The notes under the pieces: model-generated
Database searches by the model: none
The model's input: the letters and a program-made list of their open reading frames with translations, nothing else
What the model was told of the DNA's origin: nothing
In this document: piece after piece, positions 3,271 to 23,555 of the stretch
Layout of the letters: every line of letters starts with the position of its first letter
Position numbering within the stretch: position 1 is the first letter of the stretch
Program-made: the position numbers and the translations under genes
Source of the DNA: Escherichia phage vB_EcoM_TH18
DNA length: 64,000 nucleotides
Strand: one strand, 5' to 3'
Sequence record: ON075799

Positions 3271-3356
3271 AATAAGTACCCCAGGTAGAGAACCTATAGA
3301 GTGGGTCTTACGAGCCGCGCTGACGATTCTCAAGTTGGGGTTAATCTGGTCGAGGA

Positions 3357-3720: not shown

Positions 3721-3722
3721 AT

Positions 3723-4162: not shown

Positions 4163-4810
4163 TTAGAGAGAGTGCTCAATCTCAATTTCTGTCTTAGCGT
4201 TTGACTCAGACAACGCAAAATCAACGTTAGACAAGAAATCTTCAATCTCTTCTTCAAGAGAACGAATCTTAGAAGCCAGTTCAAGAGGATCCACAACCGA
4301 TGGTGTGTTCATCATTCGAATAGGAGCTTCCACAGTCTTAATCTGCTCTGCATCTGGCGCTTTATCACGTTGGATATATGGCGCTCTTGCATTTTCAAGT
4401 TTATCTTCCAGAGATTTTTCTTCTTTTGCCAGAAGAAGCTGTGCAGAAGCACGCTGTGCACAAAGTTTGTTTAACAACTCTTGTTTAAAGCAAATCGTCC
4501 GTTTGCGTTCGATTGCCTCAGCAACTGTCATAGACACATTACCAATTTTGACAATTGTCTCAGCATTAGACTTAACAATTTTTGCTTTCAGTTCATCACG
4601 CACTGCCAAGAGGTCTTGCAGACTTTGATAGTCGTTGATCGCAGATTTCTTAAAATCATCAACAGAGCCGATATAACCCGGAATCTTACAATTATTCTCA
4701 GTTCCTTTTGCAATCTTAATACAATCAAGATTGTAGATACGCTTATTGATCTTATCTTCAATTTTAGAGATAGAAGCAAGTGCACGAGTTACGGAAATCT
4801 TAGTAGACAT
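4163..4810 (-). CDS. hypothetical protein (215 aa, predicted coiled-coil, K/E-rich)
   Basis: Long ORF; composition only. Confidence 0.55.
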   Translation of the reverse strand: MSTKISVTRALASISKIEDKINKRIYNLDCIKIAKGTENNCKIPGYIGSVDDFKKSAINDYQSLQDLLAVRDELKAKIVKSNAETIVKIGNVSMTVAEAIERKRTICFKQELLNKLCAQRASAQLLLAKEEKSLEDKLENARAPYIQRDKAPDAEQIKTVEAPIRMMNTPSVVDPLELASKIRSLEEEIEDFLSNVDFALSESNAKTEIEIEHSL

Positions 4811-4883
4811 GCGATCTCTCCTATGTAAATCAGCTTTGATAAAGTAACTATCCAGAAAAACAAAAACTATGTCAAGAAAAATT

Positions 4884-5075
4884 TTAATCTTTTACAGCAT
4901 CTTTTATAGAATCACAAAGATCTTGAACAACATCAGATGTCGGTGACAAAATCATCTCGTCGGCTGCTGCTATAGCATCTGATGCTAAATCAACAAACGG
5001 AGTTGTTACCGCAGAAGTCACTTCAACAGCCGTTATTGTTACTTCGCTTGCAATCTTAAGCAAAGATCCTATCAT
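4884..5075 (-). CDS. hypothetical protein (63 aa)
   Basis: Small ORF downstream of the tRNA-Met gene. Confidence 0.3.
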   Translation of the reverse strand: MIGSLLKIASEVTITAVEVTSAVTTPFVDLASDAIAAADEMILSPTSDVVQDLCDSIKDAVKD

Positions 5076-5151
5076 AATCTCAACCCTCCTGAATATCCGT
5101 GATTCCCTTTATTTAACGACGCTGGCTCACGGTGGCACTCTCGTCAATAAA

Positions 5152-5475
5152 CTATTTTTTAGTTTTCTTACCGTTTTCTACAGAAATGCTTGTTTTCTGT
5201 TTCGCTTCTCGTTCGCGCTTTGTTTTCCCAGTGCGAATACGATATGAAGCAGAAATAACTTCACCACCAATGACACGAGACACAGATTCGTAATACATTT
5301 CAGTATTACCGTCTTCATCTTTGCGTTTTTTCAGAACTGCTACAGTTTGCGTTTTACCACCAAGGCGCACATCGTGCGGTGCAGAATGTGTCTGCGTGGA
5401 TTTTGATCCAAACTGAAAAGGTTGCTTTATCGCCTCGATAGCTGACACCTTTTTAGCAGACTGTTTCTTAGCCAT
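5152..5475 (-). CDS. hypothetical basic protein (107 aa from internal ATG, Lys-rich)
   Basis: Internal ATG at 5475 preceded by GGAGG; Lys-rich termini. Confidence 0.45.
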   Translation of the reverse strand: MAKKQSAKKVSAIEAIKQPFQFGSKSTQTHSAPHDVRLGGKTQTVAVLKKRKDEDGNTEMYYESVSRVIGGEVISASYRIRTGKTKREREAKQKTSISVENGKKTKK

Positions 5476-5527
5476 TAAGTTTTCTCCTCCGAAAACAATA
5501 AACATAGTTTATTTCGTGTGCCACATT

Positions 5528-5604
5528 TGGTGGCCCCTGCTGGACTTGAACCAGCGACCAAGCGATTATGAGTCACCTGCTCTATCCAACTGAGCTAAGG
5601 GGCC
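5528..5604 (-). tRNA. tRNA-Met (anticodon CAU; elongator-type or Ile2-type)
   Basis: Minus strand: acceptor ggcccct/aggggcc (G1-C72 paired), canonical D-arm, anticodon loop CTCATAA, T-arm gctgg-TTCAAGT-ccagc, CCA encoded. Confidence 0.7.
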
Positions 5605-9102: not shown

Positions 9103-9500
9103 GATTTATCTCCTCTAGCACGATTGACGATAATATAATTTCTTGGTTTCACGTTACCATCAGAATCCTGAAATCCTGATCTGACACGCCTGACATAACC
9201 AAAGCTCTCCATCCGAGACAGAAATTCAGACACTTTGGTTCGTGAGTTTTCGTTCCACCCCAACAGACCACACAAGGATTGCTGTGACGGAAAGAATACC
9301 AGTTCCCCACCCAAGGGGTTCCGACTCTTGAAATACTCGTATCTCCACAACAAGCGTATCAGTCTTTGCAGATCGCTTGGTGATAACCGTTCATCAAAAA
9401 CCCACTCTGTCGGCACAGCGATGTACGACCCAGCTTTCGGATTTACATGGAAACCCCCAACATTCGATTTCAAGGCAAACTCCGGTGTGTAATTCAACAC
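9099..9500 (-). CDS. hypothetical protein (133 aa), first gene of the leftward operon
   Basis: ORF whose stop overlaps the prs start by 4 bp; sits immediately left of the AT-rich control region. Confidence 0.5.
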   Translation of the reverse strand: MLNYTPEFALKSNVGGFHVNPKAGSYIAVPTEWVFDERLSPSDLQRLIRLLWRYEYFKSRNPLGGELVFFPSQQSLCGLLGWNENSRTKVSEFLSRMESFGYVRRVRSGFQDSDGNVKPRNYIIVNRARGDKS

Positions 9501-9540: not shown

Positions 9541-9859
9541 CCATATGTCCCCATTTCAGGGACATTATGATCTAATATAATATATATTATATAATATAAT
9601 TTAATATAATACTACGTATTATATATATTATAATATATATATATAATTTATATAAAATACACTAAGTCTTGAAGAATGTCAAGACTTGATTTTAAATATT
9701 TTTGTTGATATGATTCGATTGAGTCGAATCGTATGGTTCGATGATTTCGAATCATAGAGTTCATGTTGTTTTGCCTGAAATCGTGAGTCGATGAGACTCT
9801 TCAGGCAATACGTGAGTGTGTAAGATGCTCACTGCGCTGATAGCTTGTGATCATCTAAC
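9541..9859. promoter_or_regulatory. divergent intergenic control region: about 80-bp near-pure A/T tract (9585-9660) plus short palindromes and TCGA-containing repeats
   Basis: Composition and repeats read directly; lies between the leftward (tRNA/NAD) and rightward (small-gene) transcription units. Confidence 0.5.
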
Positions 9860-10491: not shown

Positions 10492-10866
10492 ATGATGAAA
10501 CGTACCATGACAGACAAAGAGCGCGAAATTGCCCTCCAGTTAGCAAGAGAAAAAAGAGAGCAACAAAAGCGAGAATGGGCTGCGCTGGCAGAAGCGGGAA
10601 AAATACGCCAACATTTCGCTGACGCTAATCACTGGGCAAGGCTCCGTAGTCAATACGGGATTACATCTCCGTACAAATTAGCTCCGGCAGAAAGTGATCA
10701 TGGCATGAAAATTCTTAGACGAACGATCAGACTGACCGGAGGATTCGAGTGGTTCAATGAGTCTTTCGGTATGGACATCAAGCAGTTTGTCAGAATGAAC
10801 CCTACGTGGTCTGCATACGCTATTCAGGGGGTAATCCTTGAAGAGTGGGATGATTATCAGAATTGA
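10492..10866 (+). CDS. hypothetical protein (124 aa)
   Basis: ORF with GGAGA ribosome-binding site; followed by hairpin and T-run. Confidence 0.5.
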   Translation: MMKRTMTDKEREIALQLAREKREQQKREWAALAEAGKIRQHFADANHWARLRSQYGITSPYKLAPAESDHGMKILRRTIRLTGGFEWFNESFGMDIKQFVRMNPTWSAYAIQGVILEEWDDYQN

Positions 10867-13013: not shown

Positions 13014-13036
13014 TATTTTATCACTGATATTTGTTT

Positions 13037-13064
13037 TCCCTGTGATATTTTTGTCACAGGGAAA
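13037..13064. repeat. 10-bp-stem hairpin ttccctgtga / tcacagggaa
   Basis: Perfect inverted repeat immediately after the 12183-13013 gene. Confidence 0.5.
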
Positions 13065-13273
13065 GTTTCAATAGTGGATATTTTCTTGATACTTTAAATT
13101 CCTACCAGAAATTTAAATTCTGTAAATTTAGAAAACTATTACTTATAGGCGTTTCGACACAATTTTGTTATGAAAGCCTTGTTTTTATATAAAAACCTGT
13201 TTTAGCATGGGTGGTAGGATCACACTCCATACTACCTTTATTCCTACAGATGAGCATCTCCATGTTCGAAAAC

Positions 13274-13458
13274 TCGGTTCTCGATCGAAAATTCATTTTC
13301 CAGATCGTATTTGCTCCTTACGGAGAAAATTTTTTAGGGCTACAAGTTTCAGTTCTCGATCGGTTTTTCGATTTCAAAATCGTATTTGTTTTTTCTTGCG
13401 AAATTTTTCGCACGCTCAGTTCTCGATCGAGTTTTCAAAATCGAAATCGTATTTGCTC
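13274..13458. repeat. iteron-like direct repeats (three units of about 42 bp containing GTTCTCGATCG ... ATCGTATTTG)
   Basis: Three imperfect direct repeats at about 13274, 13350 and 13417, plus a tgcgaaa/tttcgca palindrome between the second and third. Confidence 0.6.
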
Positions 13459-13860
13459 TATAGTGCGAAAAAATTTTTATGGGTATCATAATTCTATCAC
13501 ACACTTAAACGCAAAGCAACATAAAAATTTTTGTTGAATGATAATCATTCTCATTTGCAGAATGACAGGTAGGATCAGTGTCTTATCCTCCCCCGTTGAC
13601 CATCGTCGCCGTAGTTTGAAGTTTATAGCCGTTCTCGGCTTATCTCTTTGTTAGAGATAGATTACCATAATTGATAAAGAAAGCAAGCGTTAATTGTAAT
13701 CTTTACGTTTCTTTACAAATTTATTTTAGACAAACTACCGGCGATCGACCTTCCAACCAGCGCCCTGGTATGTTAGCCCCGCCTTTACGCCGTGGGGATG
13801 GCGTTGCCTCTTCTGTATGTTAGGCATTATAAGCCCAATCCCTGGGCTTGTCAAACATTT

Positions 13861-14124
13861 TTATTTATTTTCTTGCCAGGTTAGGACACCTAACCAGAAA
13901 TGGCAATCACCTTTCGCCCATTGTGGTATATTGCTTTCTTTCCCACCTTCCCGCGCCCAGGAATAACCGCCCGTGTAACTTTGTAATTGATAACTATCCT
14001 CGACCTTATAATCTGACAGGTTGAGAACTGTTTCTACCTTTAAGCCTGTTGCGCTCGCTACCTGGTGGATAGTTCCCCCTTGCCAGCCTAACGCGTGCAT
14101 AAGGTGCATTGTGGTAGTGGTCAT
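13861..14124 (-). CDS. hypothetical protein (87 aa), possible helix-turn-helix regulator, divergently transcribed
   Basis: AGAGGA ribosome-binding site; own sigma70-like promoter; segment GTIHQVASATGLKVETV weakly resembles a helix-turn-helix. Confidence 0.35.
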   Translation of the reverse strand: MTTTTMHLMHALGWQGGTIHQVASATGLKVETVLNLSDYKVEDSYQLQSYTGGYSWAREGGKESNIPQWAKGDCHFWLGVLTWQENK

Positions 14125-14156
14125 TTTTTCTATTCCTCTGTTAGTTGGTTGTCAGA

Positions 14157-14185
14157 ATTGTATCTATAACCAACCAGGTTAGCAA
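14157..14185 (-). promoter_or_regulatory. sigma70-like promoter (TTGCTA-17-TACAAT) for gene 13861-14124
   Basis: -35 and -10 hexamers with 17-bp spacer on the minus strand. Confidence 0.5.
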
Positions 14186-14220
14186 GATAAATAAAAGAGA
14201 AAAATTTTTTAAAAATACTA

Positions 14221-14249
14221 TTGACAGCTAGATAGTATAGGTCTACTAT
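14221..14249 (+). promoter_or_regulatory. sigma70 promoter (TTGACA-17-TACTAT) with AT-rich upstream element
   Basis: Consensus -35, 17-bp spacer; the upstream A/T tract is nearly identical to the one at 19246-19263. Confidence 0.6.
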
Positions 14250-14303
14250 GTGCACATCAAGGCGATACACCGCCACCAACCAACCTAAAAGGGGTAAATC
14301 AAT

Positions 14304-14927
14304 ATGAAAACCATTGTTAACGCTGAGAATGTATCTTTCGATAAGTTGAACGACGCACAAAAAGAAAAAGCCATTGATCTTATTCGTGAGCGTGAAAGAG
14401 AAAGCGCCGATAATTTCTTTGCGGATAGTGTCATTGAAGACTATAAGAATGACATTTTACCAGAGTACGGGATCGATGACGCGGTTATCTATTGGTCAGG
14501 ATTCTGGTCGCAAGGCGACGGCGCATCTATCAGCACTGATCGCGTGGATATTGAAAAATTTTTAAGAAAAGTTAAATCTTTAACAAAATTTAGAGGTATC
14601 CGCAAACTATTTGATCTTGGTGAATATAGTCAGTTATACGCAAGCATTGAGCGGGATAATTACAGCCGCTACCATCATGAAAATACTGTTTCCGGTTACG
14701 TTGAAACTATGTATTGTGGTGATTTAACGGCAAAACAGGAAGATCTAGCCAATCAGCTTGAAAACTTGTTAACTGAAACGATCCGCGATCTGTCTTGTAA
14801 ACTTTACAGAGATTTAGAATCAGCCTATGATGACCAGTTTACAGATGAAGCCATCACCGAATCAATTGAAGCCAATGATTATCGTTTTGATATTGATGAA
14901 GATGGAGAAGTTTACGCTATCGCTTAA
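14304..14927 (+). CDS. hypothetical acidic protein (207 aa)
   Basis: Ribosome-binding site AAAGGGGTAAAT; strongly D/E-rich. Confidence 0.6.
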   Translation: MKTIVNAENVSFDKLNDAQKEKAIDLIRERERESADNFFADSVIEDYKNDILPEYGIDDAVIYWSGFWSQGDGASISTDRVDIEKFLRKVKSLTKFRGIRKLFDLGEYSQLYASIERDNYSRYHHENTVSGYVETMYCGDLTAKQEDLANQLENLLTETIRDLSCKLYRDLESAYDDQFTDEAITESIEANDYRFDIDEDGEVYAIA

Positions 14928-15014
14928 AAGTACTTGCATTCAGTTTTAAAATAGTATTATACTACTAAAACAGGACGGGGAACTGCTCCCCGTCACATTC
15001 AGGAGATCATCAAA

Positions 15015-15227
15015 ATGGCTAATATTCGCACCTTGTTAAAAAATGCAAAGCAAGTTTTATTTTCCGATCACGATTATTTCAATAAAGACATTACAGGCGT
15101 AAAGAATATCAAAGACGTAAAAAATGTCATGGGTATCTATTGCAATATGAAGCGAGTAGGCACATTTGGCAATAAAGTATTATATCAGGCAGGTGACTAT
15201 AATTTTACTTTGACAATTATTTCATAA
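15015..15227 (+). CDS. hypothetical protein (70 aa)
   Basis: AGGAG ribosome-binding site; preceded by hairpin gacgggga-actgc-tccccgtc. Confidence 0.5.
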   Translation: MANIRTLLKNAKQVLFSDHDYFNKDITGVKNIKDVKNVMGIYCNMKRVGTFGNKVLYQAGDYNFTLTIIS

Positions 15228-15292
15228 AACCACTTGCAAAGTTATATAGCTCTGTTATACTACCAACATTGACAAACGAGAGGTAAATAAAA

Positions 15293-15649
15293 ATGGCAAT
15301 CCAGGCAATCATGTTAGAACTTACAGATTTCCGTAATACTGTAAAAAATTTATCTAAGAAACAGGTTGACAATATCATCAACGGATACCGTAGCAAGATT
15401 AAAGATCTTCCGCTTAAACGCGATCAACATGCGGCTAATATGATGTTTAATGCTATGATTAAAAAGATGATCCAATGTGATCTTTCTCTGGCTTATGAAT
15501 ACGCTGGCGATCTCTTTGCAACGTATAACAAGCCCGTGCTAGGTATGAGCACCACGGAAGAATTACACGCCTTAAATCTGCGGCAAGATGCTTGGGATAA
15601 TATGCACCGCGTTATGGTGTGGGTAGAAAGCGGTAAAATTTATCAATAA
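15293..15649 (+). CDS. hypothetical protein (118 aa)
   Basis: Promoter TTGCAA-16-TATACT at 15235-15262 and ribosome-binding site GAGAGGTAAAT. Confidence 0.55.
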   Translation: MAIQAIMLELTDFRNTVKNLSKKQVDNIINGYRSKIKDLPLKRDQHAANMMFNAMIKKMIQCDLSLAYEYAGDLFATYNKPVLGMSTTEELHALNLRQDAWDNMHRVMVWVESGKIYQ

Positions 15650-15703
15650 AAGTAGTTGACTTTTAGTTATGCCGTGATAGAATACACGGCATAGATAAGA
15701 GAA
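15650..15703 (+). promoter_or_regulatory. 54-bp repeated promoter/operator element, copy 1 (TTGACT ... TAGAAT with the -10 inside an 8-bp-stem palindrome)
   Basis: Direct repeat of 19883-19936 with one mismatch. Confidence 0.6.
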
Positions 15704-15725
15704 ACTACTTATCAGAGTTTAAAAG

Positions 15726-15944
15726 ATGAAAAATATTACGGGTAAAACCGAACTATTAAAGGCGCTTTCTGTTGGTGAGTCAGCTTTATGGGTATGTGAA
15801 AAAGATCGCCTACCATCGCGAGAGATGGCCTTATTTAAGGCTTTATCTCTGAAGCTGAAAATTAAATTATCCCAAAAATTAGCGGTTGTTGCCGCACCGA
15901 GGGAAACCGCTTTCAGTGTTGTAATGGTTAAACGGTTGGAGTAG
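15726..15944 (+). CDS. hypothetical protein (72 aa)
   Basis: Small ORF immediately downstream of repeated promoter copy 1. Confidence 0.5.
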   Translation: MKNITGKTELLKALSVGESALWVCEKDRLPSREMALFKALSLKLKIKLSQKLAVVAAPRETAFSVVMVKRLE

Positions 15945-16030
15945 AAAAAAATTAAAAATTATCTTGACAAGCAAAACAGCAAAAATTAAACTTACACACA
16001 GTTAAACAAACAATATTGACGAGGTAAATC

Positions 16031-16402
16031 ATGAAACAGTTAACCGCTTCCCAAAAAACAATGATCCGTGAGTATGTTTTAAATTCTCTTTCTTTTGATC
16101 TTGAATCTGATCTCAAACAAGATCAGATTCAAGAATTAAAAAACCGCTTTGAATCTGAATACTGGTACGATAGCAACAAGAAACGCTATCAAAATGATAA
16201 AGTACAAGGCCTTAAAAACTGGCTACAAGGCTTGCCAAGCGGTGTTGATATTGATTTCACTTATTACGATATTGAGCAACGCCTTAAGGATTTTGGAATC
16301 ATCACCGACACGACCAGAGAAAGCACCATTGAAAAATATGTTTCTGAGTGGTGGGATCTAGTAGCGCCGTTTTATGTGGGTCTGATCGTAAACTTAAAAT
16401 AA
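16031..16402 (+). CDS. hypothetical protein (123 aa)
   Basis: Promoter TTGACA-17-TAAACT at 15964-15992; ribosome-binding site GAGGTAAAT. Confidence 0.55.
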   Translation: MKQLTASQKTMIREYVLNSLSFDLESDLKQDQIQELKNRFESEYWYDSNKKRYQNDKVQGLKNWLQGLPSGVDIDFTYYDIEQRLKDFGIITDTTRESTIEKYVSEWWDLVAPFYVGLIVNLK

Positions 16403-16479
16403 TTCTTGAAAACTGTTTTAAATTGGCTTAAATTAAAGGGGTGAATTTAATCACCCCCAACATGAAAGAGGTTAATCAA

Positions 16480-16791
16480 ATGAATACTTATTTTTCTACT
16501 CGTTCACTTGCACGCATTGCAGCGAAAGAAACAGGCGGTAAAGTTTTAGACAATGGCAAAGATTCACCGATCGGTAAACGTTGGCAGGTTATCCCCGGTT
16601 ATGTTGTCGAAGCCTCCCAGGATACAGCAAAACAACGCGCGGAGATGGAAAATAAACCAGTAGTTACCTTATCCATCGGCAAGCGTAGCAATGTAGCGAA
16701 TAAAGCCCGTAAGGCGCTTTATTACGCCATCAATTACGCAAGAAATAATAAAACTGTACCAGTTTATCATAAGCGTTCATTTAAGAAATAA
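16480..16791 (+). CDS. hypothetical basic protein (103 aa)
   Basis: Ribosome-binding site AAAGAGGTTAAT before the ATG at 16480. Confidence 0.55.
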   Translation: MNTYFSTRSLARIAAKETGGKVLDNGKDSPIGKRWQVIPGYVVEASQDTAKQRAEMENKPVVTLSIGKRSNVANKARKALYYAINYARNNKTVPVYHKRSFKK

Positions 16792-16861
16792 TTTTTAATT
16801 AGATAAAAAAGCGCCCTAGGAAATGGGCGCTAAACAAAAACACTTAAAGAGGTAAATTATT

Positions 16862-17212
16862 ATGACTAATATTGCAGAAGCTTTTCAAAAAGCTATCGAA
16901 AATAAAAACGCTGAGTTGTCTTTAACTTCTCTGGATTTTACGGATGTGTACGGTAACACTTATTTTGTTTATGAGCTTGCTTTTACTTGTCCTGAGTTAA
17001 AAACATGGGAAACGTTGCATAAATCTCGCGAGCTGCAATATGGTTATGGCGATCATGTTCTTCATGTTGCAATGAAAGACCTTTCAACTATCGCCGAGGT
17101 AAAATCTGAGGCCGCATATATTACCCGTTGGGCGCATGACAACGGCTTAAAAATTAGTGTCAACAAGCGCACCAATTGCCGGAAAAAAGATTTAAAACAG
17201 TTTATCGCTTGA
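16862..17212 (+). CDS. hypothetical protein (116 aa)
   Basis: Ribosome-binding site AAGAGGTAAAT. Confidence 0.55.
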
Positions 17213-17237
17213 TCCTGTTAATCATCTTGGTGGTTGT

Positions 17238-17588
17238 ATGATTCAGTTTTATATAATCATCGCGGCGCTTGCAATTTACTTAGGATTGCACAAAAAAGTA
17301 TTCAGGTTAATTCTCTGGTTTTATTACGAGTACAGGATCAGAATGGTTTTCCATTATATTGAATACTCTTTCCACGGTGAGAGATACCACACAAGGAGAT
17401 CCGGCCCATTAAATGATCTTGAGGGAAACGGTTTAATCTGTGAGGTTAAAAAGCGTGGCGGGAAAATTCTTTACCACAAAGAGGGCACTTTTGATTATAT
17501 TGATGAGGTGATTAATTTTAGGCAACAAGCCGTAAAAGATCACGCAAGCAAAATAATCAACGGCAGCTATAAACGCAAAGCGGGGTAA
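17238..17588 (+). CDS. hypothetical protein with N-terminal transmembrane segment (116 aa)
   Basis: Hydrophobic N-terminus IIIAALAIYLGL. Confidence 0.5.
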   Translation: MIQFYIIIAALAIYLGLHKKVFRLILWFYYEYRIRMVFHYIEYSFHGERYHTRRSGPLNDLEGNGLICEVKKRGGKILYHKEGTFDYIDEVINFRQQAVKDHASKIINGSYKRKAG

Positions 17589-17589
17589 T

Positions 17590-17772
17590 ATGCGGAATTT
17601 TGAAAAAATTGTTAAAGCTAATCGCCTGGAATACGGGGAAACAGACGAAAAACGGGAACGGGTAGGCAAACGCCACAAGCCTAAAAAGGTTCCTAAATTG
17701 TGGTGCCCTGATAAATACGACCACAAATTAAAACAACGCATCGCTGAAAAACAGCGATTAAATGCAAGATAA
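17590..17772 (+). CDS. hypothetical basic protein (60 aa)
   Basis: Lys/Arg-rich ORF followed directly by a terminator. Confidence 0.45.
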   Translation: MRNFEKIVKANRLEYGETDEKRERVGKRHKPKKVPKLWCPDKYDHKLKQRIAEKQRLNAR

Positions 17773-17779
17773 CAGACAA

Positions 17780-17803
17780 GGCCGGAACTATCCGGCCTTT
17801 TTA
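17780..17803 (+). terminator. rho-independent terminator (ggccggaactatccggcc + TTTTT)
   Basis: GC-rich hairpin immediately followed by a T-run. Confidence 0.7.
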
Positions 17804-17991
17804 GCACCTAGTAGCGCCTGTAACGATTAAAAAGGCCAACGGTGGCATGATGCACCACAAAATAAAATAGCTCGTTAGAGAGTGTTTTAGAGGCCTTAAA
17901 ATCGATCCGAAAAATATCTATAAAAATGCTTGCAATGCTTTCCCGCTATCGTTATAGTGTTCCCAACAAGCAAGCAAACGAGGTAACGGCA

Positions 17992-18129
17992 ATGATTGAG
18001 ATTCTTAAAAATCCTATTTTGTGTGGTATGGTTGTTTCTGTGTCACTTCCGATCGTGCTGTTAGTCGTTAGCGAAATAGATGATTTTATTTTCAATAAAA
18101 GACTTGCCAACAAGTCAAAAACAAATTAA
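17992..18129 (+). CDS. small membrane protein (45 aa)
   Basis: Promoter TTGCAA-17-TATAGT upstream; ribosome-binding site CGAGGTAA; hydrophobic core. Confidence 0.35.
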   Translation: MIEILKNPILCGMVVSVSLPIVLLVVSEIDDFIFNKRLANKSKTN

Positions 18130-18166
18130 TATAGTACCAACATACTAACTAGCGAGGTGATTTAAT

Positions 18167-18385
18167 ATGTTTGGTTTTATTGTTCTATCTTGTTCTCTTT
18201 CTGTTACTGCTGCAAAGGTAGAATGTAACTACACTGTAAAAGAGACTTTTAATGATGAAAAGTCTTGCAATGTATACGAAAATAATTATAAACTAGGAGA
18301 CGGGGAGCAGTTCGGGATCTGTGATGAATTAAAGGACGGTATCAAGAAAGGCGATAAGCGCCCGATCTTGGTCCTGAAAAAATAA
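18167..18385 (+). CDS. small secreted or periplasmic protein (72 aa, signal-peptide-like N-terminus, 4 Cys)
   Basis: N-terminal hydrophobic segment ending in AAK; ribosome-binding site GCGAGGTGAT. Confidence 0.5.
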   Translation: MFGFIVLSCSLSVTAAKVECNYTVKETFNDEKSCNVYENNYKLGDGEQFGICDELKDGIKKGDKRPILVLKK

Positions 18386-18426
18386 TTTTTCTAATCATGT
18401 TGATCAATTTTTAAGAGGTGAATAAA

Positions 18427-18714
18427 ATGTTTGAAGTTTTCGCGGGTATGTGTTTTTATACAGCTTTGGCAATTCGTCAGTGTGATGATTATATCGTTGA
18501 ATCATACGATGATCAGCTGACTTGCGAAATAGTCGCTAATGACTACGGCAAAAAAGATCGCTGGATTAATCCGGCTTGCATACCATCCCCAGAGGTAGAA
18601 GCCATGCCGGAAGGGGAAGAGGTATCAGATCCAGTTGTGGCGGTATCCTCCTTTTTCGTTGACAACCTGGACGCCCAAGAATTGATCGACATGTATGTAA
18701 AAAATCAAAAATAA
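18427..18714 (+). CDS. hypothetical protein (95 aa)
   Basis: Ribosome-binding site AAGAGGTGAAT before the ATG at 18427. Confidence 0.5.
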   Translation: MFEVFAGMCFYTALAIRQCDDYIVESYDDQLTCEIVANDYGKKDRWINPACIPSPEVEAMPEGEEVSDPVVAVSSFFVDNLDAQELIDMYVKNQK

Positions 18715-18716
18715 CG

Positions 18717-18754
18717 CTTGACGTTGATTTGTGCCGCTTTATAATAGGCGGCAT
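18717..18754 (+). promoter_or_regulatory. sigma70 promoter TTGACG-17-(T)ATAAT with the -10 inside the palindrome tgccgc...gcggca
   Basis: Hexamers plus a 6-bp inverted repeat flanking the -10. Confidence 0.5.
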
Positions 18755-18804
18755 AGGCAAGCGAAAGCGGATATAAATCTTAAACAAGTTAAGAGAGGTA
18801 AATC

Positions 18805-19125
18805 ATGGAACAAGCGAATAAATTTTTCTTTCTGGCTGGGATCGTGGATAATGTGAAATGTGATTTCAAGCGTGAAAATGATAAGACGTTACTCACTTTC
18901 TGCGATATGCTTGATCATGAGAATGCCGACACGTTACGAATCGAGATCCGCACGATAACCAATATCGACAATTTAAGCCGTTTAATTTATAAATCTCATT
19001 CTATAGCCTACAACCTGGAAACATCAACAAGCTGCCTCCAACAAGGAGAGAGCTTGCCCATTCTAAATAGTGCCGATGTATTTGGCGCGGTTGTTGCAAT
19101 TGTAAATGATGTTTTTTCTCGTTGA
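18805..19125 (+). CDS. hypothetical protein (106 aa)
   Basis: Ribosome-binding site AGAGAGGTAAAT. Confidence 0.5.
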   Translation: MEQANKFFFLAGIVDNVKCDFKRENDKTLLTFCDMLDHENADTLRIEIRTITNIDNLSRLIYKSHSIAYNLETSTSCLQQGESLPILNSADVFGAVVAIVNDVFSR

Positions 19126-19263
19126 TTGGTGTTAATATTATGTTAGAGAATATTGTGTTCTTGTGTGGTGTCGTTCTTGCTGTTGTGGTTGGCCTCCTGG
19201 CGACGATGGCGAATATTGTGATCTCAAACAACCTGGCAGGGTAAAAATTTTTAAAAATAGTAT

Positions 19264-19291
19264 TGACATACTTGCGGCATATGGTATTATT
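19264..19291 (+). promoter_or_regulatory. sigma70 promoter (TTGACA-16/17-TATTAT) with repeated AT-rich upstream element
   Basis: The upstream A/T tract plus -35 nearly duplicates 14199-14226. Confidence 0.6.
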
Positions 19292-19341
19292 TACCACATG
19301 AAGGGGCAAGATTGACTTGCCTCACTAACGAAAGGTAAATA

Positions 19342-19611
19342 ATGATGAACATTTCTAAAACTACTTTTAACTTTGCTAAAAAGCGCGGTATTGAGCTTGA
19401 GCTGATCGAAGCGGATGATCGCTTGGTCCTGGCTTTTTATGAGGCTAAAAATGAATGTGAATGGATGTTCTCTTATAATGTTAATCATGATTGCCTAACA
19501 TGGCGCGGCAATATCTATCTTTCAAACGAAGTAAAAGAGGAGTTACCCGCCACGATCACGACTGAGAAAAAACTACGTGAGGTTATTGATTTCATCTCTA
19601 AAAATATCTAA
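19342..19611 (+). CDS. hypothetical protein (89 aa)
   Basis: Ribosome-binding site GAAAGGTAAAT. Confidence 0.5.
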   Translation: MMNISKTTFNFAKKRGIELELIEADDRLVLAFYEAKNECEWMFSYNVNHDCLTWRGNIYLSNEVKEELPATITTEKKLREVIDFISKNI

Positions 19612-19658
19612 GATTACATGAAAAGGGGCGAAAGCCCCTACCGAAGAAGGTAATAAAA

Positions 19659-19883
19659 ATGGATAAAGTAACAAAGATTGAGCATGAGGTAATTGACTTG
19701 GCACGGGCCAACAAGCCATTTGATAAGATTTATTCTAAGGAGAATAAAGAGATCTTGAAAGACCTAACGCAAGGTCAAAAAGATGGCTTGCGCCGCTTAT
19801 ATCGTGAGGCGTATGACTATTTTCGTTGGTGGGAAATAGAAGAGGCTAACGCGAAAATAGAAGGCCTAGAAAATTTAGTATAA
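19659..19883 (+). CDS. hypothetical protein (74 aa)
   Basis: Ribosome-binding site GAAGGTAAT; preceded by hairpin gggcgaaagcccc. Confidence 0.5.
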   Translation: MDKVTKIEHEVIDLARANKPFDKIYSKENKEILKDLTQGQKDGLRRLYREAYDYFRWWEIEEANAKIEGLENLV

Positions 19884-19936
19884 AAGTAGTTGACTTTTAG
19901 TTATGCCGTGATAGAATGCACGGCATAGATAAGAGA
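19883..19936 (+). promoter_or_regulatory. 54-bp repeated promoter/operator element, copy 2
   Basis: Direct repeat of 15650-15703 with one mismatch. Confidence 0.6.
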
Positions 19937-19978
19937 GACGGCACAAGCCATTGATTAAACTTAAAGAGGTAAATTATT

Positions 19979-20380
19979 ATGAATACTTACAAAACTGTTT
20001 TTAATTTCGACAATTTCAAAGCTATCTGCGACGACCAGATCGGCAAGTGCCGTAAAGAAAAAGGATTCTATAAATCTTATAAGTTGATTGCGGTTGTTGA
20101 TGAAGAGATCACCGAAGTGGCAACGCTCAACCTGTACCACACTAACGCTACTAATTACGCTTGCTTATGGATGCACTGGGCCAATATTAAAGGTTGGGAT
20201 CATGGCTATGTTGGCGGGAAAGCAAGCGGATACGGTTACAACAGGGAGGAGGCCGCGATCCATGTCGCAGCTAATAAACTCGGTATCACTGGCAACTGGT
20301 TTAACGGTGAACAATTGTTAGATGCAATGGCACGTAATTTTGATATGAAAGGCGCGAAGGTTATCTGCTGCAACGCGTGA
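19979..20380 (+). CDS. hypothetical protein (133 aa)
   Basis: Ribosome-binding site AAAGAGGTAAAT. Confidence 0.55.
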   Translation: MNTYKTVFNFDNFKAICDDQIGKCRKEKGFYKSYKLIAVVDEEITEVATLNLYHTNATNYACLWMHWANIKGWDHGYVGGKASGYGYNREEAAIHVAANKLGITGNWFNGEQLLDAMARNFDMKGAKVICCNA

Positions 20381-20427
20381 TCACTCAATAGCGGGGAATA
20401 TTCCCCGCTTATAGATAGGGCATAATC

Positions 20428-20886
20428 ATGATTTACGATCTTAAATATTACGACGAATTGAGTATTGCAGCACAATTAACCGCCCGTGTCAATATTATAG
20501 CAGACCTGGAAAATCACCATAGAAAGCGCATAGTCCAGACTATAGCCAGTTTTAAAAATGATCCTCATAAAGTGATTAATGACACGAAGCACATTCAACG
20601 CCTCATAAACGGCGCAAAGACGCTTTATAGTGTACGTCATTACGGGGATGATTACCTTATAAAGTTTATTCGTGATAATCGTTTGATCTTTACCCCTGGT
20701 GGTAGCTATATAACCTATAGCGACGGCTTTATGATGATTATTGGAGGTAAGGAATACACCCCCACGGCCTCACAACAAAAAGCATTGAGAGAGCTTTATA
20801 TAGCCATTAATGAGCGTGGTCAATCATATCATGATTGGTTATATAGAATGCACCACAAAATAAAAATTTTTATGATTCCCGCTTGA
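20428..20886 (+). CDS. hypothetical protein (152 aa)
   Basis: ORF preceded by hairpin ggggaatattcccc. Confidence 0.55.
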   Translation: MIYDLKYYDELSIAAQLTARVNIIADLENHHRKRIVQTIASFKNDPHKVINDTKHIQRLINGAKTLYSVRHYGDDYLIKFIRDNRLIFTPGGSYITYSDGFMMIIGGKEYTPTASQQKALRELYIAINERGQSYHDWLYRMHHKIKIFMIPA

Positions 20887-20964
20887 CACCTACATAAAAA
20901 CGCCTTATTATCTATCTCATAAGGCGGGGAGCGGTTCCCCGCCACACTTAAGAGGTAAATAATC

Positions 20965-21354
20965 ATGCGTAACCTGGTTCATGTTTCCAACGTTGAAAAA
21001 TTCCAATCTTTACAGGCTATCGTAAACGATACAGCGCCTTTTATCGTTAAAGGCTTGATTGCCAGAATGCAACAGAAAAAACCTGAAATCTGGGCTAATT
21101 ATTGCCTTGATAATGATGATCAGGCTGCCGCTTTCATGGTTGGCGAACTGCTGGGAAGTGTAGGGAACATGCTACCGGAAAACATCGCAGAAGAGATCAC
21201 CTACCGTTATAATATGGCGATAACTTATCAGGAAGTCGCACAATTTAACCTGATGGATGACGACGAACAACAGGATCAGGAAATTTTCTGGGAGTATGCC
21301 GACCGCCAAGCCGTTTTTGATGAGCGGTTAGAGATGTACTATAACGAATGGTAA
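20965..21354 (+). CDS. hypothetical acidic protein (129 aa)
   Basis: Promoter TTGACA-17-TATTAT at 20883-20911; ribosome-binding site TAAGAGGTAAAT. Confidence 0.55.
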   Translation: MRNLVHVSNVEKFQSLQAIVNDTAPFIVKGLIARMQQKKPEIWANYCLDNDDQAAAFMVGELLGSVGNMLPENIAEEITYRYNMAITYQEVAQFNLMDDDEQQDQEIFWEYADRQAVFDERLEMYYNEW

Positions 21355-21359
21355 TAAAC

Positions 21360-21389
21360 AGGCCGCTAATATGCGGCCTTTAATTTTTC
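21360..21389 (+). terminator. rho-independent terminator (aggccgc-taatat-gcggcct + T-run)
   Basis: Hairpin followed by TTTAATTTTT. Confidence 0.65.
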
Positions 21390-21450
21390 TATTGACAATA
21401 TCGCACTAACCTTTAAAATGTTCTTTGTTAAGTATCTTTAAAGGTGTAAC

Positions 21451-21630
21451 ATGTTCCAATCAATCATTGATATTCTATCAGTCGCTAATAACGTGATGAA
21501 CGTAATTACAATGATTAAACTTGTTGCGTGGTTTGTTTCCGGGGATTATCGCTATATTAAATGGCGCAAGCCAACCATAAAAGACGTAGTGAAGATCTCA
21601 TTTGAAGCAATGACAGAATATTATCTATAA
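21451..21630 (+). CDS. hypothetical small protein (59 aa; below the ORF-track cutoff)
   Basis: Promoter TTGACA-16-TAAAAT at 21393-21420, ribosome-binding site AAAGGTG, and an open frame translated by hand. Confidence 0.35.
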   Translation: MFQSIIDILSVANNVMNVITMIKLVAWFVSGDYRYIKWRKPTIKDVVKISFEAMTEYYL

Positions 21631-21986
21631 CGATTATTTTTTGTTGACATCCAAAAGATTTTTCAATACCATTGATCACATAAGGGCGGCAATGATGCTG
21701 CCCACAACTGAAAGAGAAATCACCATGGCGCTTAAAAAACTAACAAGTAATACACGTTGGGATGAAATCGGCGGGGAAGTATACATTTTTACCCGTAAAC
21801 CAGGTGACCAAAAATGATCAAAGGCTTTTACTTGCCACCCTGCAACCATAGACCTGATAAAAAGGGAAGGTTTACGCGAAGCAGTAGCAAGAAGTTTACT
21901 GATCCCTTATAAAAAATAGTTTGAAATTAATTTCACTATTGATAAAATATTATATAAAACTTTAACCTAAAAAGGGGTAAATTAAT

Positions 21987-22187
21987 ATGAAACGTTTTAC
22001 TTATGGTGTGGTTGATGGTTATGTATCTAACCGTTTTTACAATACCGAGCGTGGTGCTAAAAATGCGGCTACCCGTGAACATGGCAATAGTGTAAATTTA
22101 CAAGTTGGCTATATTAGCAAAATTAGCGGTATGTTTATTCCGGTTGCTCAACGCGGCATGTATTGCATAAACTGGATGCCAATGTAA
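21987..22187 (+). CDS. hypothetical protein (66 aa)
   Basis: Ribosome-binding site AAAAGGGGTAAAT. Confidence 0.5.
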   Translation: MKRFTYGVVDGYVSNRFYNTERGAKNAATREHGNSVNLQVGYISKISGMFIPVAQRGMYCINWMPM

Positions 22188-22202
22188 AAAGGAGTAATAA
22201 AA

Positions 22203-22394
22203 ATGGATGTATCACAAGTTAGAAAGGTATTAGCAGCGTTACGCTATCACAATCATAGCAAGGTGAAGAATGATCCTGATTATGTTGATTCAAGTCTGGA
22301 GGAAGACACCTTGCAAGCTATAAGCCATATGCAGGAATTGCTTAAGCGTATGACAGAGAAGAACAGATCTGACTATATAGGTGACGAGATCTAA
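22203..22394 (+). CDS. hypothetical protein (63 aa)
   Basis: Ribosome-binding site AAAGGAGTAAT. Confidence 0.5.
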   Translation: MDVSQVRKVLAALRYHNHSKVKNDPDYVDSSLEEDTLQAISHMQELLKRMTEKNRSDYIGDEI

Positions 22395-22490
22395 TCTTTA
22401 CAATCTCGCCTATTGACACCGGATCACGCTTACATTATTATCTATCTTGTAGGGCAAGCAATACCGCAAGCCCACAAAGAGGACAATAAA

Positions 22491-22859
22491 ATGAGCAAAT
22501 CAGCAATTAAAGCACTTGAAAAAGCGCAAAAAGTGATCGCTACTTCCACCACTGGCGCAAGTATTAATCTGATCGCTTACTTGGAAGATGAAACTATCCG
22601 TAAAAATTGGCGTAATACTGATTTGCTGGCTTGCTTATTGATTAATAGTGTTGCTAATGCTTTCCAGTGTGAAACAGCCGAGAGCCTGGAAGAAAACTTG
22701 TTTGACAATATGGATCAAGCCATTGAAACCTATATCCAATCAAATCTGGATAGCTGGAACAGTAAAACATGGCCCGACAGCTTACGCGATACAACTGACC
22801 AACTGATCCGCCTTGCGGTGATGGTTGAACGCGATAACGTTTACAGCCGCACAAAGTAA
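22491..22859 (+). CDS. hypothetical protein (122 aa from internal ATG)
   Basis: Promoter TTGACA-17-TATTAT at 22415-22443; ribosome-binding site AAGAGGA before the ATG at 22491. Confidence 0.55.
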   Translation: MSKSAIKALEKAQKVIATSTTGASINLIAYLEDETIRKNWRNTDLLACLLINSVANAFQCETAESLEENLFDNMDQAIETYIQSNLDSWNSKTWPDSLRDTTDQLIRLAVMVERDNVYSRTK

Positions 22860-22867
22860 GATAGTAC

Positions 22868-22897
22868 AAAGGGCGCTTAATGCGCCCTTTCTTTTTG
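22868..22897 (+). terminator. rho-independent terminator (aagggcgc-ttaa-tgcgccctt + T-run); end of the plus-strand module
   Basis: Hairpin followed by TCTTTTTG. Confidence 0.7.
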
Positions 22898-22929
22898 CCC
22901 TAACAAACATGATAAGTTTTATCTATCAA

Positions 22930-23284: not shown

Positions 23285-23361
23285 CGACACAATAACGCAG
23301 TAGTAGCCCCTCACCCCTCCTTCCAGTCGCCCCCGGTATCGGGGCAGCGTTATTGTGTCGC
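23285..23361. repeat. 15-bp perfect inverted repeat (gcgacacaataacgc / gcgttattgtgtcgc) around a 47-nt C-rich loop
   Basis: Exact reverse-complement match read from the sequence. Confidence 0.8.
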
Positions 23362-23373
23362 TAAGCGACAACG

Positions 23374-23437
23374 CGTTAACAATTTTGCAAGATTTTATTA
23401 ATACTTTAACTGTTATAATTTTATTGCAAAATTGTTA
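23374..23437. repeat. 16-bp perfect inverted repeat (gttaacaattttgcaa / ttgcaaaattgttaac), 32-bp spacer
   Basis: Exact reverse-complement match read from the sequence. Confidence 0.8.
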
Positions 23438-23444
23438 ACCTACT

Positions 23445-23555
23445 GCGTTATTGTGTCACGTAGTGATTAGTTACATATGTAACTAACAGCTATCACTGCA
23501 AAATTGTGTCACGTAGTGATTAGCTGAGAATCAGCTAACCCGTAAAACGGGCTAA
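23445..23555. repeat. direct repeat ATTGTGTCACGTAGTGATTAG (two copies), each followed by a palindrome (ttagttacatatgtaactaa; agctgagaatcagct), then cccgtaaaacggg
   Basis: Exact repeats and palindromes read from the sequence. Confidence 0.75.

What the first reader, a model, noticed from the sequence alone, without database searches (positions are those of the whole stretch)
15650..15703. 54-bp promoter element duplicated 4.2 kb apart, with the -10 hexamer inside an 8-bp-stem palindrome
15650-15703 and 19883-19936 are identical except for one base. Each contains TTGACT, a 16-17-bp spacer and TAGAAT, with the -10 embedded in the palindrome atgccgtg-atagaata-cacggcat. A third promoter (18717-18754) has the same architecture with a different palindrome (tgccgc-tttataatag-gcggca). 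A dyad symmetric sequence overlapping the -10 is the classic layout of an operator, so these promoters may be controlled by a dimeric phage or host regulator. Separately, the AT-rich upstream tract plus -35 at 14199-14226 is nearly duplicated at 19246-19269.
Basis: seen in the sequence. Interest (0 to 1): 0.55.

Follow-up and report, generated by a model that had tools for sequence, protein, structure and literature searches.

The report
Early promoters folded inside conserved hairpins
The duplicated 54-bp element is one of three copies of a phage early-promoter cassette whose -10 box sits in the loop of a hairpin kept by compensatory mutations, the same kind of promoter/stem-loop cassette (PeSL) already described in T4-like phages, and not a repressor operator.

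Summary
15650-15703 and 19883-19936 differ by one base, and 18717-18767 is a diverged third copy. The window is an Avunavirus (rV5-like) coliphage. All three copies lie directly after the stop codon of a small gene of unknown function in the + strand early block.

The palindrome is only the core of a 16-bp hairpin running from just after the -35 to about +12. It is much more stable on the + strand because it uses G.U pairs. A covariance model found 28 copies in 9 phages from at least five lineages. The -35 and -10 stay constant while the stem sequence changes by compensatory substitution (11 of 16 pairs; 94.8% of cells paired; 55 G.T cells against 3 A.C cells). That pattern fits a single-stranded + strand hairpin, most simply in read-through RNA, and argues against a sequence-specific operator.

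No copy has a U-tract, so it is not a canonical terminator.

The layout matches PeSL cassettes of RB49/phi1 feature by feature, and RB49 PeSL193/192 also has its -10 in a loop. Near-identical cassette pairs between unrelated genes also occur in Salmonella phage SSBI34, and indels among Avunavirus relatives lie next to copy B.

Verdict: a new sequence family of a known kind, of moderate interest.

The parts
15645..15712 (+). Cassette A. Upstream stop codon TAA 15647-49; -35 TTGACT 15656-61; extended -10 TG 15675-76; -10 TAGAAT 15678-83 in the loop; 16-bp hairpin 15660-15701 (perfect core 15668-15693); inferred start near C15690/A15691. In this copy only, 8 further pairs form (AAGTAGTT 15650-57 with AACTACTT 15703-10). 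Drives ORF 15726-15944.
18707..18774 (+). Cassette B, the diverged copy. Upstream stop codon TAA 18712-14; -35 TTGACG 18718-23; -10 TATAAT 18740-45 in the loop; hairpin 18722-18763 (12+4 pairs, five of them G.U). Drives ORF 18805-19125.
19879..19946 (+). Cassette C. Upstream stop codon TAA 19881-83; -35 TTGACT 19890-95; -10 TAGAAT 19912-17 in the loop; hairpin 19894-19935. Drives ORF 19979-20380. It lies 4,234 bp from A as a direct repeat.
14196..14249 (+). First promoter of the + block: A/T-rich UP-like tract plus TTGACA-17-TACTAT. No hairpin encloses it; a hairpin lies downstream in the leader. Its upstream part is repeated at 19238-19268.
   Evidence: (D18)
19238..19290 (+). Second copy of the UP-like tract plus -35 (TTGACA-16-TATTAT with TG), followed by the leader hairpin GGGGCAAG..CTTGCCTC.
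   Evidence: (D18)
17974..18792 (+). Variable segment next to cassette B. Contig OVXI01000557 lacks about 18114-18697 (two ORFs), with the junction at the upstream edge of B. Contig ERZ1090862 NODE-37 lacks about 17974-18113 and 18130-18791 (three ORFs plus cassette B), so ORF 18805 is then served by the promoter at 17930-17958.
14200..22900 (+). Early block of small ORFs of unknown function. It holds about 12 sigma-70-like promoters, most with a stem-loop in one of the positions described for PeSLs: enclosing the -10 (A, B, C); just downstream of the -10 (14221, 19263, 20883, 21644); upstream of the -35 (21360-79 before 21392). The block ends at the terminator 22868-22890.

Best explanation
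A, B and C are three copies of a composite early regulatory cassette of about 65 bp, of the PeSL type. Each is a host sigma-70 promoter (UP-like A-tract holding the upstream stop codon, then TTGAC, a 16-nt spacer and TAnAAT) that drives the next small gene. The promoter lies inside a hairpin of about 16 bp running from -30 to +12, with the -10 hexamer in its loop. Transcripts started at the cassette itself begin inside the 3' arm, so they cannot form the hairpin. Only RNA reading through from upstream promoters contains both arms. In that RNA the hairpin most likely acts as an insulator: it cuts, pauses or destabilises read-through message, or leaves a protective 3' stem on the upstream message. 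Expression of each gene would then be set by its own promoter. It is not a canonical terminator. The near-identity of A and C reflects duplication or gene conversion of the cassette between unrelated genes. Such repeats are also potential substrates for recombination that shuffles the genes between them. Shown here: the repeat, the promoter consensus, the conserved and covarying + strand pairing, the absence of a U-tract, and the spread across phage genera. Inferred: the transcription start site, that the hairpin forms in RNA rather than DNA, and what the hairpin does.
For: The + strand folds to -19.5, -19.7 and -20.9 kcal/mol (z = -8.7, -7.1, -5.3). The - strand reaches only -14.5 and -9.3. 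In the Avunavirus copies alone, 96% of cells are paired and 4 pairs change on both sides, including G:C to A:T in Av-05 copy C; contig OVXI copy B has a 2-nt insertion that lengthens the stem. The covariance model finds 28 copies in 9 phages. On that alignment 94.8% of cells pair against 75.9% in shuffles; 11 of 16 pairs change on both sides; 0 of 500 shuffles reach the observed covariation score; sliding the 3' partners by 1-3 columns gives 36-47% paired. The + strand is the more stable in 27 of 28 copies (mean -21.1 against -14.7 kcal/mol). G.T cells outnumber A.C cells 55 to 3, or 14 to 3 without the two pairs whose consensus is a wobble. A structure-blind promoter scan of the SSBI34 early block finds 14 promoters. 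Seven have the -10-enclosing hairpin and four or five have a GGGGCG..CGCCCC hairpin in the spacer. RB49 PeSLs read directly show the same two layouts. The PeSL description matches: upstream stop codon in an AT-rich tract, sigma-70 boxes, a stem-loop with G-T pairs placed between -35 and -10 or overlapping the -10, then SD and ATG, repeated in gene-variable regions; a stem-loop without a U-tract lowered downstream lacZ (PMC2839356). Near-identical cassette pairs with unrelated flanks recur in SSBI34. Indels among relatives lie next to B.
Against: There are no transcript data for any of these phages, so promoter activity, the start site and the existence of read-through RNA are all inferred. No copy has a U-tract (at most 2 T in the 8 nt after the helix), so the terminator function claimed for PeSLs cannot work by the canonical mechanism here. 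The 28-copy alignment was selected and aligned with a structure-aware model, and many copies are paralogues, so the cell counts overstate the number of independent events. Two Avunavirus copies carry an uncompensated mismatch at one pair. Across window, Av-05 and the metagenome contigs the cassettes diverge about as fast as their surroundings. The T-rich spacer facing a purine-rich leader would produce some G.U pairing without any selection. The indel junctions next to B lie at short non-cassette repeats (CCAACAAG; AAACAA[A/G]TTAA; GT.AAAAA), not inside cassettes. No relative lacks the A-to-C interval.
Confidence: 0.62

Rival explanations
1. The hairpin is specifically an RNase III-type processing signal, as between the T7 early genes. 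Read-through polycistronic RNA would be cut in the stem. The upstream message would keep a protective 3' hairpin, and the downstream product would start close to where promoter-initiated RNA starts. This is a more specific version of the RNA-level explanation, competing with attenuation or termination.
For: The helix is 16 bp with a 1x1 or 2x2 internal loop. With flanking pairs it reaches 24 bp in A and 21 bp in B, the size range of RNase III substrates (my own knowledge of T7 R1.1-type sites). No copy has a U-tract. The pairing is specific to the + strand.
Against: The extra outer pairs that bring the helix to 20 bp or more are not conserved: copy A of ERZ1090862 NODE-37 and of Av-05 carry mismatches there. 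No cleavage data exist. RNase III determinants were not and could not be scored with these tools.
Confidence: 0.2
2. The hairpin acts in DNA. Supercoiling would extrude it, mainly on the non-template strand, so that the -10 is exposed or hidden. These early promoters would then respond to the superhelical state of freshly injected DNA.
For: The -10 is always in the loop and the helix always spans -30 to +12. G.T mismatches are tolerated in DNA hairpins, so the strand bias does not exclude a non-template-strand hairpin.
Against: A cruciform needs both strands to fold. The - strand hairpin is 6 kcal/mol weaker on average and would carry A.C mismatches. Perfect stems of 6-10 bp with 6-10 nt loops are poor candidates for extrusion (established knowledge, not tested here). 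In other cassettes of the same blocks the stem-loop lies in the spacer or downstream of the -10. That fits a position-independent RNA role better than display of the -10.
Confidence: 0.08
3. This is the first reader's model: the dyad is an operator for a dimeric phage or host repressor that overlaps the -10 and shuts off these promoters.
For: Dyad symmetry overlaps the -10. The outer bases TATG..CATA are the best conserved part of the dyad, in 24-26 of 28 copies.
Against: The inner half-sites differ completely between copies but stay complementary: TGCCGTG, TGACCTG, TAGCG, TGGCTGTG, TGTGGGG, GTCCCGC. The pairing extends outside the palindrome, on one strand only, through wobble pairs. The conserved CATAG is explained by the start site, and TTATG by pairing to it. 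No DNA-binding domain was found in the suggested regulator or its neighbours.
Confidence: 0.06
4. The pairing has no function of its own. The cassettes are simply duplicated strong promoters, and the inverted repeat is a relic or exists only as a recombination substrate.
For: Near-identical copies occur between unrelated genes. Divergence between orthologous copies is similar to that of the flanks.
Against: Pairing is maintained through at least 11 covarying positions and many different stem sequences across genera. An indel lengthens rather than breaks the stem.
Confidence: 0.04

Closest known systems
PeSL (promoter-early stem-loop) cassettes of T4-like phages RB49/phi1, T4/PST and KVP40/nt-1 (Arbiol et al. 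2010, PMC2839356; Comeau et al. 2014, PMC4122927)
   Same: The order of parts is the same: upstream stop codon in an AT-rich tract, near-consensus sigma-70 -35 and -10, a stable stem-loop containing G-T pairs that overlaps the -10 (one of five described positions), then SD and ATG. Both are repeated within a genome, concentrated among small genes of unknown function in variable regions, and lie next to indels between close relatives. RB49 PeSL193/192 has its -10 (TAAGAT) in the loop of GGGAGT..ACTCCC. RB49 PeSL211/210 and 206/205 share AAAGTTGTTGACA, and 211/210 an ..AAACGAAAC leader, with the Vequintavirinae cassettes.
   Different: The host phages are Vequintavirinae and Stephanstirmvirinae, not Straboviridae. 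The covariance model of this family gives no significant hit in 100 kb of RB49 (best E 0.38), so it is a separate sequence family. The helix here is longer (16 bp, enclosing the whole core promoter) and lacks the G-run/C-run stem. Recombination between cassettes and mini-circle formation are not shown here.
Certrevirus putative early promoter AAAA(N3-4)TGTTGAC(N17-19)TATAAT (Buttimer et al. 2020, PMC7344957)
   Same: It is the same promoter family. Cronobacter phage CR3 copies are hit by the model. It is concentrated in the block of short hypothetical ORFs, at 13-21 sites per genome.
   Different: That paper describes only the promoter boxes. The words stem-loop, hairpin and palindrome do not occur in its text.
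Repressor operators overlapping the -10 (lac O1, lambda OR/OL, LexA boxes)
   Same: Dyad symmetry is centred on or near the -10.
   Different: Operators keep the half-site sequence and are strand-symmetric. Here the sequence varies, only the complementarity is kept, and the pairing is strand-specific.
RNase III processing hairpins between T7 early genes; intrinsic terminators
   Same: They are intergenic hairpins in polycistronic early RNA.
   Different: No U-tract, so not an intrinsic terminator. RNase III cleavage is untested and the conserved helix is shorter than two turns.

Membership tests
PeSL (promoter-early stem-loop cassette) | Near-consensus sigma-70 -35 and -10 boxes | tested here: met
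   TTGACT-16-TAGAAT with TG, and TTGACG-16-TATAAT. The boxes are conserved in all 28 copies.
PeSL (promoter-early stem-loop cassette) | AT-rich tract upstream of the -35 that contains the stop codon of the upstream gene | tested here: met
   TAA lies 6, 3 and 6 nt before the -35 of A, B and C, inside AATAAAAGTAG or AAAAATAACGC.
PeSL (promoter-early stem-loop cassette) | Stable stem-loop with G-T pairs in one of five positions relative to the promoter, commonly overlapping the -10 | tested here: met
   -19.5 to -20.9 kcal/mol, z = -5 to -9, with the -10 in the loop. Pairing is kept by covariation.
PeSL (promoter-early stem-loop cassette) | Shine-Dalgarno sequence and start codon of the next gene at the 3' end | tested here: met
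   ATG at 15726, 18805 and 19979; B and C are preceded by AAGAGAGGTAAAT / AAAGAGGTAAAT, A only by a short A-rich AAAAG.
PeSL (promoter-early stem-loop cassette) | Repeated in the genome and concentrated among genes of unknown function in gene-variable regions | tested here: met
   There are 3 copies in the window and 3 in the whole Av-05 genome, all in the early block, and 7 in 12 kb of SSBI34. Flanking ORFs have no Pfam hit and only PHROGs of unknown function. Gene content varies next to B.
PeSL (promoter-early stem-loop cassette) | Recombination between cassettes causes indels and mini-circles | tested here: inconclusive
   Indels adjoin cassette B, but their junctions are short non-cassette repeats. 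No relative lacks the A-C interval. Near-identical pairs are compatible with gene conversion. Mini-circles need inverse PCR.
PeSL (promoter-early stem-loop cassette) | The stem-loop lowers expression from upstream transcription (terminator or attenuator) | not testable with these tools
   Sequence shows only that there is no U-tract in 28 of 28 copies. The RB49 PeSL211/210 stem-loop that was tested experimentally also lacks one (PMC2839356).
PeSL (promoter-early stem-loop cassette) | Sequence homology to the RB49/phi1 cassettes | tested here: not met
   Model R1 gives a best E of 0.38 in 100 kb of RB49. Only short shared strings are seen. The filing is therefore by architecture, as a separate sequence family.
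Repressor operator | Half-site sequence conserved among sites bound by one regulator | tested here: not met
   There are at least eight different stem sequences, changed on both sides.
Repressor operator | Symmetry of the duplex with no strand preference | tested here: not met
   55 G.T cells against 3 A.C cells. The + strand is more stable in 27 of 28 copies.
Repressor operator | A cognate DNA-binding regulator | tested here: inconclusive
   No Pfam domain was found in 13861-14124(-) or in nine neighbouring ORFs. Absence of a hit does not exclude a novel fold.
Intrinsic (rho-independent) terminator | G+C-rich hairpin followed directly by a U-tract | tested here: not met
   The elements are not listed by the terminator scan. 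There are at most 2 T in the 8 nt after the helix in all 28 copies.
Known RNA families (Rfam 15) | A match to a curated covariance model | tested here: not met
   No family matches the three elements at E up to 1.

The most novel reading that the evidence does not exclude
The hairpin works in DNA. Superhelical stress on the newly injected genome would extrude the non-template strand so that the -10 hexamer is displayed as a single-stranded loop to host sigma-70 holoenzyme. These would then be structure-dependent early promoters, a host-polymerase counterpart of the hairpin promoters read by the phage N4 virion RNA polymerase. The fixed geometry (-30 to +12, -10 always in the loop) and the bias towards G.T pairs are compatible with this reading.
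Probability: 0.06. Interest if true: 0.8.

Novelty: new member of a known kind. Interest (0 to 1): 0.4.

Why it matters
It extends PeSL-type promoter/stem-loop cassettes from T4-like phages to the rV5-like (Vequintavirinae) and phi92-like (Stephanstirmvirinae) myoviruses. These groups are much used as therapeutic and biocontrol coliphages, and their early transcription has not been studied experimentally. In the library searched, PeSLs are described only for T4-like phages. It also supplies covariation evidence that the stem-loop itself, not only the promoter, is under selection, and that the selected pairing is on the coding strand. Because the -10 lies in the loop, promoter function and hairpin function can be separated cleanly by mutation. 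That makes the unsettled question of what PeSL stem-loops do (terminate, process or stabilise RNA, or promote recombination) directly testable. For annotation, it shows that palindromes over the -10 in these phages should not be read as operators.

Tried and rejected
- **More copies in the genome.** I searched the window and the whole Av-05 genome with the covariance model and found only three copies.
- **IMG/VR pattern scan.** It returned only Av-05 itself.
- **Paralogy of flanking genes.** This could have explained the A/C repeat, but the flanking proteins are unrelated.
- **DNA-binding domain in the proposed regulator and neighbours.** None found.
- **rV5 itself.** The annotated promoters P205, P195A, P192 and P186 lack hairpins enclosing the -10, and the model has no hit in that locus.
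- **Phage outra (Justusliebigvirus).** Its early intergenic regions mostly have G-run/C-run hairpins downstream of the -10, not this family.
- **Direct homology to RB49 PeSLs.** Not significant.
- **Rfam.** No family matches.
- **Literature.** No transcript mapping was found for Vequintavirinae. No mention of PeSLs outside T4-like phages turned up. The PVP-SE1 paper is not held.
- **Canonical terminator.** Rejected, because there is no U-tract.
- **Technical limit.** Only the first locus of each fetching call reached the Python sandbox. The structure-blind promoter scan could therefore be run only on SSBI34 and the window.

Full report
**What the window is.** Bases 14000-21000 are 100% identical to Escherichia phages 18-1-2, 19-1-2 and 24-2-1, and 93.4% identical to phage Av-05 (Vequintavirinae, Avunavirus, an rV5-like myovirus). 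The finding lies in a + strand block (about 14.2-22.9 kb) of some 23 small ORFs. None of the ten ORFs tested has a Pfam domain, and their PHROG families are all of unknown function. The block has many sigma-70-like promoters and ends at a strong terminator at 22868-22890. This is the layout of an early region.

**Checking the observation.** 15650-15703 and 19883-19936 differ at one base. A 47-nt pattern finds only these two places, with none in 100 shuffles.
- Each copy has TTGACT, a 16-nt spacer, TG at -15/-14 and TAGAAT.
- The perfect palindrome is 9 bp: TATGCCGTG-N8-CACGGCATA.
- The third promoter at 18718-18745 is a diverged homologue of the same element (family D1), not merely a similar architecture.
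- The UP-like tract plus -35 at 14196-14226 is repeated at 19238-19268 (87% over 31 nt).
- The genes flanking A and C are unrelated, so what is repeated is a non-coding cassette.

**The palindrome is the core of a longer, strand-specific hairpin.**
- As RNA, the + strand forms 16 pairs: 10 plus 6 around a 1x1 internal loop in A and C, and 12 plus 4 in B. Energies are -19.5, -19.7 and -20.9 kcal/mol (z = -8.7, -7.1, -5.3).
- The - strand forms only the perfect core, at -14.5 kcal/mol for A and -9.3 for B (z = -1.6).
- The extra + strand pairs include G.U wobbles, which would be A.C mismatches on the other strand.
- The helix runs from the last bases of the -35 (about -30) to about +12, and the -10 hexamer occupies the loop.
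- With flanking sequence, the helix in A reaches 24 bp and in B 21 bp. Those outermost pairs are not conserved in relatives.

**Conservation in close relatives.** All three cassettes are present in Av-05. A metagenome scan found two further relatives, contigs ERZ1090862 NODE-37 and OVXI01000557.
- Across these ten sequences 96% of cells pair and four pairs change on both sides.
- Av-05 copy C has G:C changed to A:T in the core.
- B differs from A and C by U:A to G:C and U:A to C:G.
- Copy B of OVXI01000557 has a 2-nt insertion that makes a perfect 24-nt palindrome.
- Against this, Av-05 copy C and ERZ1090862 copy A each carry an uncompensated mismatch at the same pair.
- Av-05 and ERZ1090862 copy A have a weakened -35 (TTGTCT).

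**The family is widespread and its stem covaries.** Sensitive blastn with the 93-108 nt elements hit intergenic sites in other genera. A covariance model built from the six Avunavirus sequences then found 28 copies at E below 1e-3 in nine phages:
- the Avunavirus set;
- Salmonella phage SSBI34 (7 copies in 12 kb);
- Cronobacter phage CR3;
- Serratia phage ChuuTotoro;
- E. coli phage UPEC06;
- Klebsiella phage 05F01 (Stephanstirmvirinae, 5 copies).

TTGAC is kept in 26 of 28 copies, and every -10 fits NANAAT: TAGAAT or TATAAT in 20, CATAAT in 5, and TACAAT, GATAAT and AACAAT once each. The stem differs between copies but stays complementary. Examples are TGCCGTG/CACGGCA, TGACCTG/CAGGTCA, TGACCG/CGGTCA, TAGCG/CGCTA, TGGCTGTG/CACAGCCA, TGTGGGG/CCCCACA, TGCCTGG/CTAGGCA and GTCCCGC/GCGGGAC.

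On this alignment:
- 94.8% of cells pair, against 75.9% in shuffles and 36-47% when the partners are slid;
- 11 of 16 pairs show changes on both sides, and 0 of 500 shuffles reach the covariation score;
- the + strand is more stable in 27 of 28 copies, mean -21.1 against -14.7 kcal/mol;
- G.T cells outnumber A.C cells 55 to 3, or 14 to 3 without the two consensus-wobble pairs.

The caveat is that the alignment was selected and fitted with a structure-aware model, and it contains paralogues. As a structure-blind control I scanned the SSBI34 block with a plain -35/-10 pattern. Of 14 promoters, 7 have the -10-enclosing helix (14-17 enclosing pairs), and 4 or 5 others have a GGGGCG..CGCCCC hairpin in the spacer.

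**What this rules in and out.**
- An operator for a sequence-specific dimer would keep its half-site sequence and be strand-symmetric. Neither holds here, and no DNA-binding domain was found in the suggested regulator.
- The conserved outer bases have a simpler explanation. CATAG is the likely start site (pyrimidine then purine, 7-8 nt after the -10), followed by a conserved leader. TTATG in the otherwise unconstrained spacer is conserved because it pairs with CATAG.
- A canonical terminator is excluded: no copy has more than 2 T in the 8 nt after the helix, and the terminator scan lists none of them.
- Transcripts that start at the cassette begin inside the 3' arm, so the full hairpin can exist only in RNA reading through from upstream, or in single-stranded + strand DNA.

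My preferred reading is therefore an RNA-level insulator: attenuation, endonucleolytic processing or a protective 3' stem. It would uncouple each small gene from upstream transcription. The size of the helix makes RNase III a reasonable candidate, but that is untested.

**Comparison with what is known.** The element fits the published description of PeSLs in RB49/phi1 point by point (PMC2839356):
- upstream stop codon in an AT-rich tract;
- sigma-70 boxes;
- a stem-loop with G-T pairs, most commonly between the -35 and -10 or overlapping the -10;
- SD and ATG at the 3' end;
- repeats concentrated in gene-variable regions rich in genes of unknown function.

I read three RB49 PeSLs directly. PeSL193/192 has TAAGAT in the loop of GGGAGT..ACTCCC. 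PeSL211/210 and 206/205 have a GGGGAT..ATCCCC hairpin in the spacer, like the second SSBI34 class. The RB49 stem-loop that lowered lacZ in that study also has no U-tract.

The other promoters of the window's block carry stem-loops in the remaining PeSL positions. The covariance model has no significant hit in RB49, so this is a separate sequence family of the same kind.

The Certrevirus paper reported the promoter consensus at 13-21 sites per genome but not the hairpin (PMC7344957). In the held literature PeSLs appear only for T4-like phages. Several rV5 early ORFs are annotated as similar to RB49 ORFs, which fits exchange of such cassettes between the two phage groups. I did not test that.

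**Mobility and shuffling.** The locus next to B varies among four close relatives.
- Window and Av-05 have P17930, a 45-aa ORF, two more ORFs, cassette B, then ORF 18805.
- OVXI01000557 lacks the two ORFs, with the junction at the upstream edge of B.
- ERZ1090862 NODE-37 lacks all three ORFs and B, so ORF 18805 is served by P17930.
- The junctions are short direct repeats outside the cassette core. This shows that the region gains and loses genes and that B is dispensable. It does not show cassette-by-cassette recombination.
- SSBI34 has two further pairs of near-identical cassettes (65 nt with two mismatches; 52 nt identical), 4.5 and 3.8 kb apart. Their boundaries are sharp, at the upstream stop codon and about +20, and their flanks are unrelated.
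- The A/C pattern therefore recurs independently. This points to duplication or gene conversion of the cassette as a unit.

**Verdict.** The operator reading is not supported. The element is a new sequence family of the known PeSL kind in rV5-like and related phages. Its hairpin is well supported by covariation and by its strand bias. What the hairpin does is still inferred.

Noticed in passing
window 13826-13854 (-) and 13014-13860: A perfect consensus promoter (TTGACA-17-TATAAT) whose spacer is itself a hairpin (AGCCCAgggatTGGGCT). It points into an ORF-free stretch of about 850 bp that holds three tandem repeats of about 70 nt (13265-13477). No Rfam match. It may be a non-coding RNA or an origin region; the rV5 paper also mentions an ORF-free box.
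   Followed up: partly
window 32215-32245 (-): An 8-bp hairpin, AACCTCTC..GAGAGGTT, with an extended -10 (TGATAGAAT) in its loop. It lies in the 64-nt gap between the minus-strand ORFs 32268-32765 and 31859-32203. The layout matches the finding but the sequence is unrelated and the -35 is weak.
   Followed up: partly
window 16810-16831, 19624-19639, 16437-16458: Intergenic G+C-rich hairpins in the + strand gene block that have their T-run on the minus strand and an A-run on the + strand. They look like terminators aimed at antisense transcription.
   Followed up: no
window 17966-17973 / 18106-18113, 18119-18129 / 18781-18791, and 18113 / 18697: Short direct repeats (CCAACAAG; AAACAA[A/G]TTAA; GT.AAAAA) mark the deletion junctions that distinguish the metagenome relatives ERZ1090862 NODE-37 and OVXI01000557 from the window.
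   Followed up: yes
window 18-5604 (-): A cluster of 15 tRNA genes on the minus strand.
   Followed up: partly
window 9590-9650: A run of A/T-only nested palindromes with arms up to 11 bp (ATTATATATAT..ATATATATAAT).
   Followed up: no
window 23344-23523: Three copies of a 29-nt motif (..TTATTGTGTCACGTAGTGATTAG) just past the end of the early block, at the switch to minus-strand genes.
   Followed up: no
L011 (Salmonella phage SSBI34) 6008-6075 / 10553-10619 and 5292-5360 / 9134-9202: Two pairs of near-identical promoter/hairpin cassettes, 4.5 and 3.8 kb apart, between unrelated genes. The same phenomenon as window A/C, in another genus.
   Followed up: yes
window 15015-15227; GenBank records MG0656xx and MT119359: The 70-aa ORF is annotated in relatives as phosphoribosylpyrophosphate synthetase, which is implausible for its size; it had no Pfam hit. 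Several 'Campylobacter phage' records and 'Enterococcus phage heks' carry rV5-like coliphage genes, which suggests mislabelled or contaminated records.
   Followed up: no
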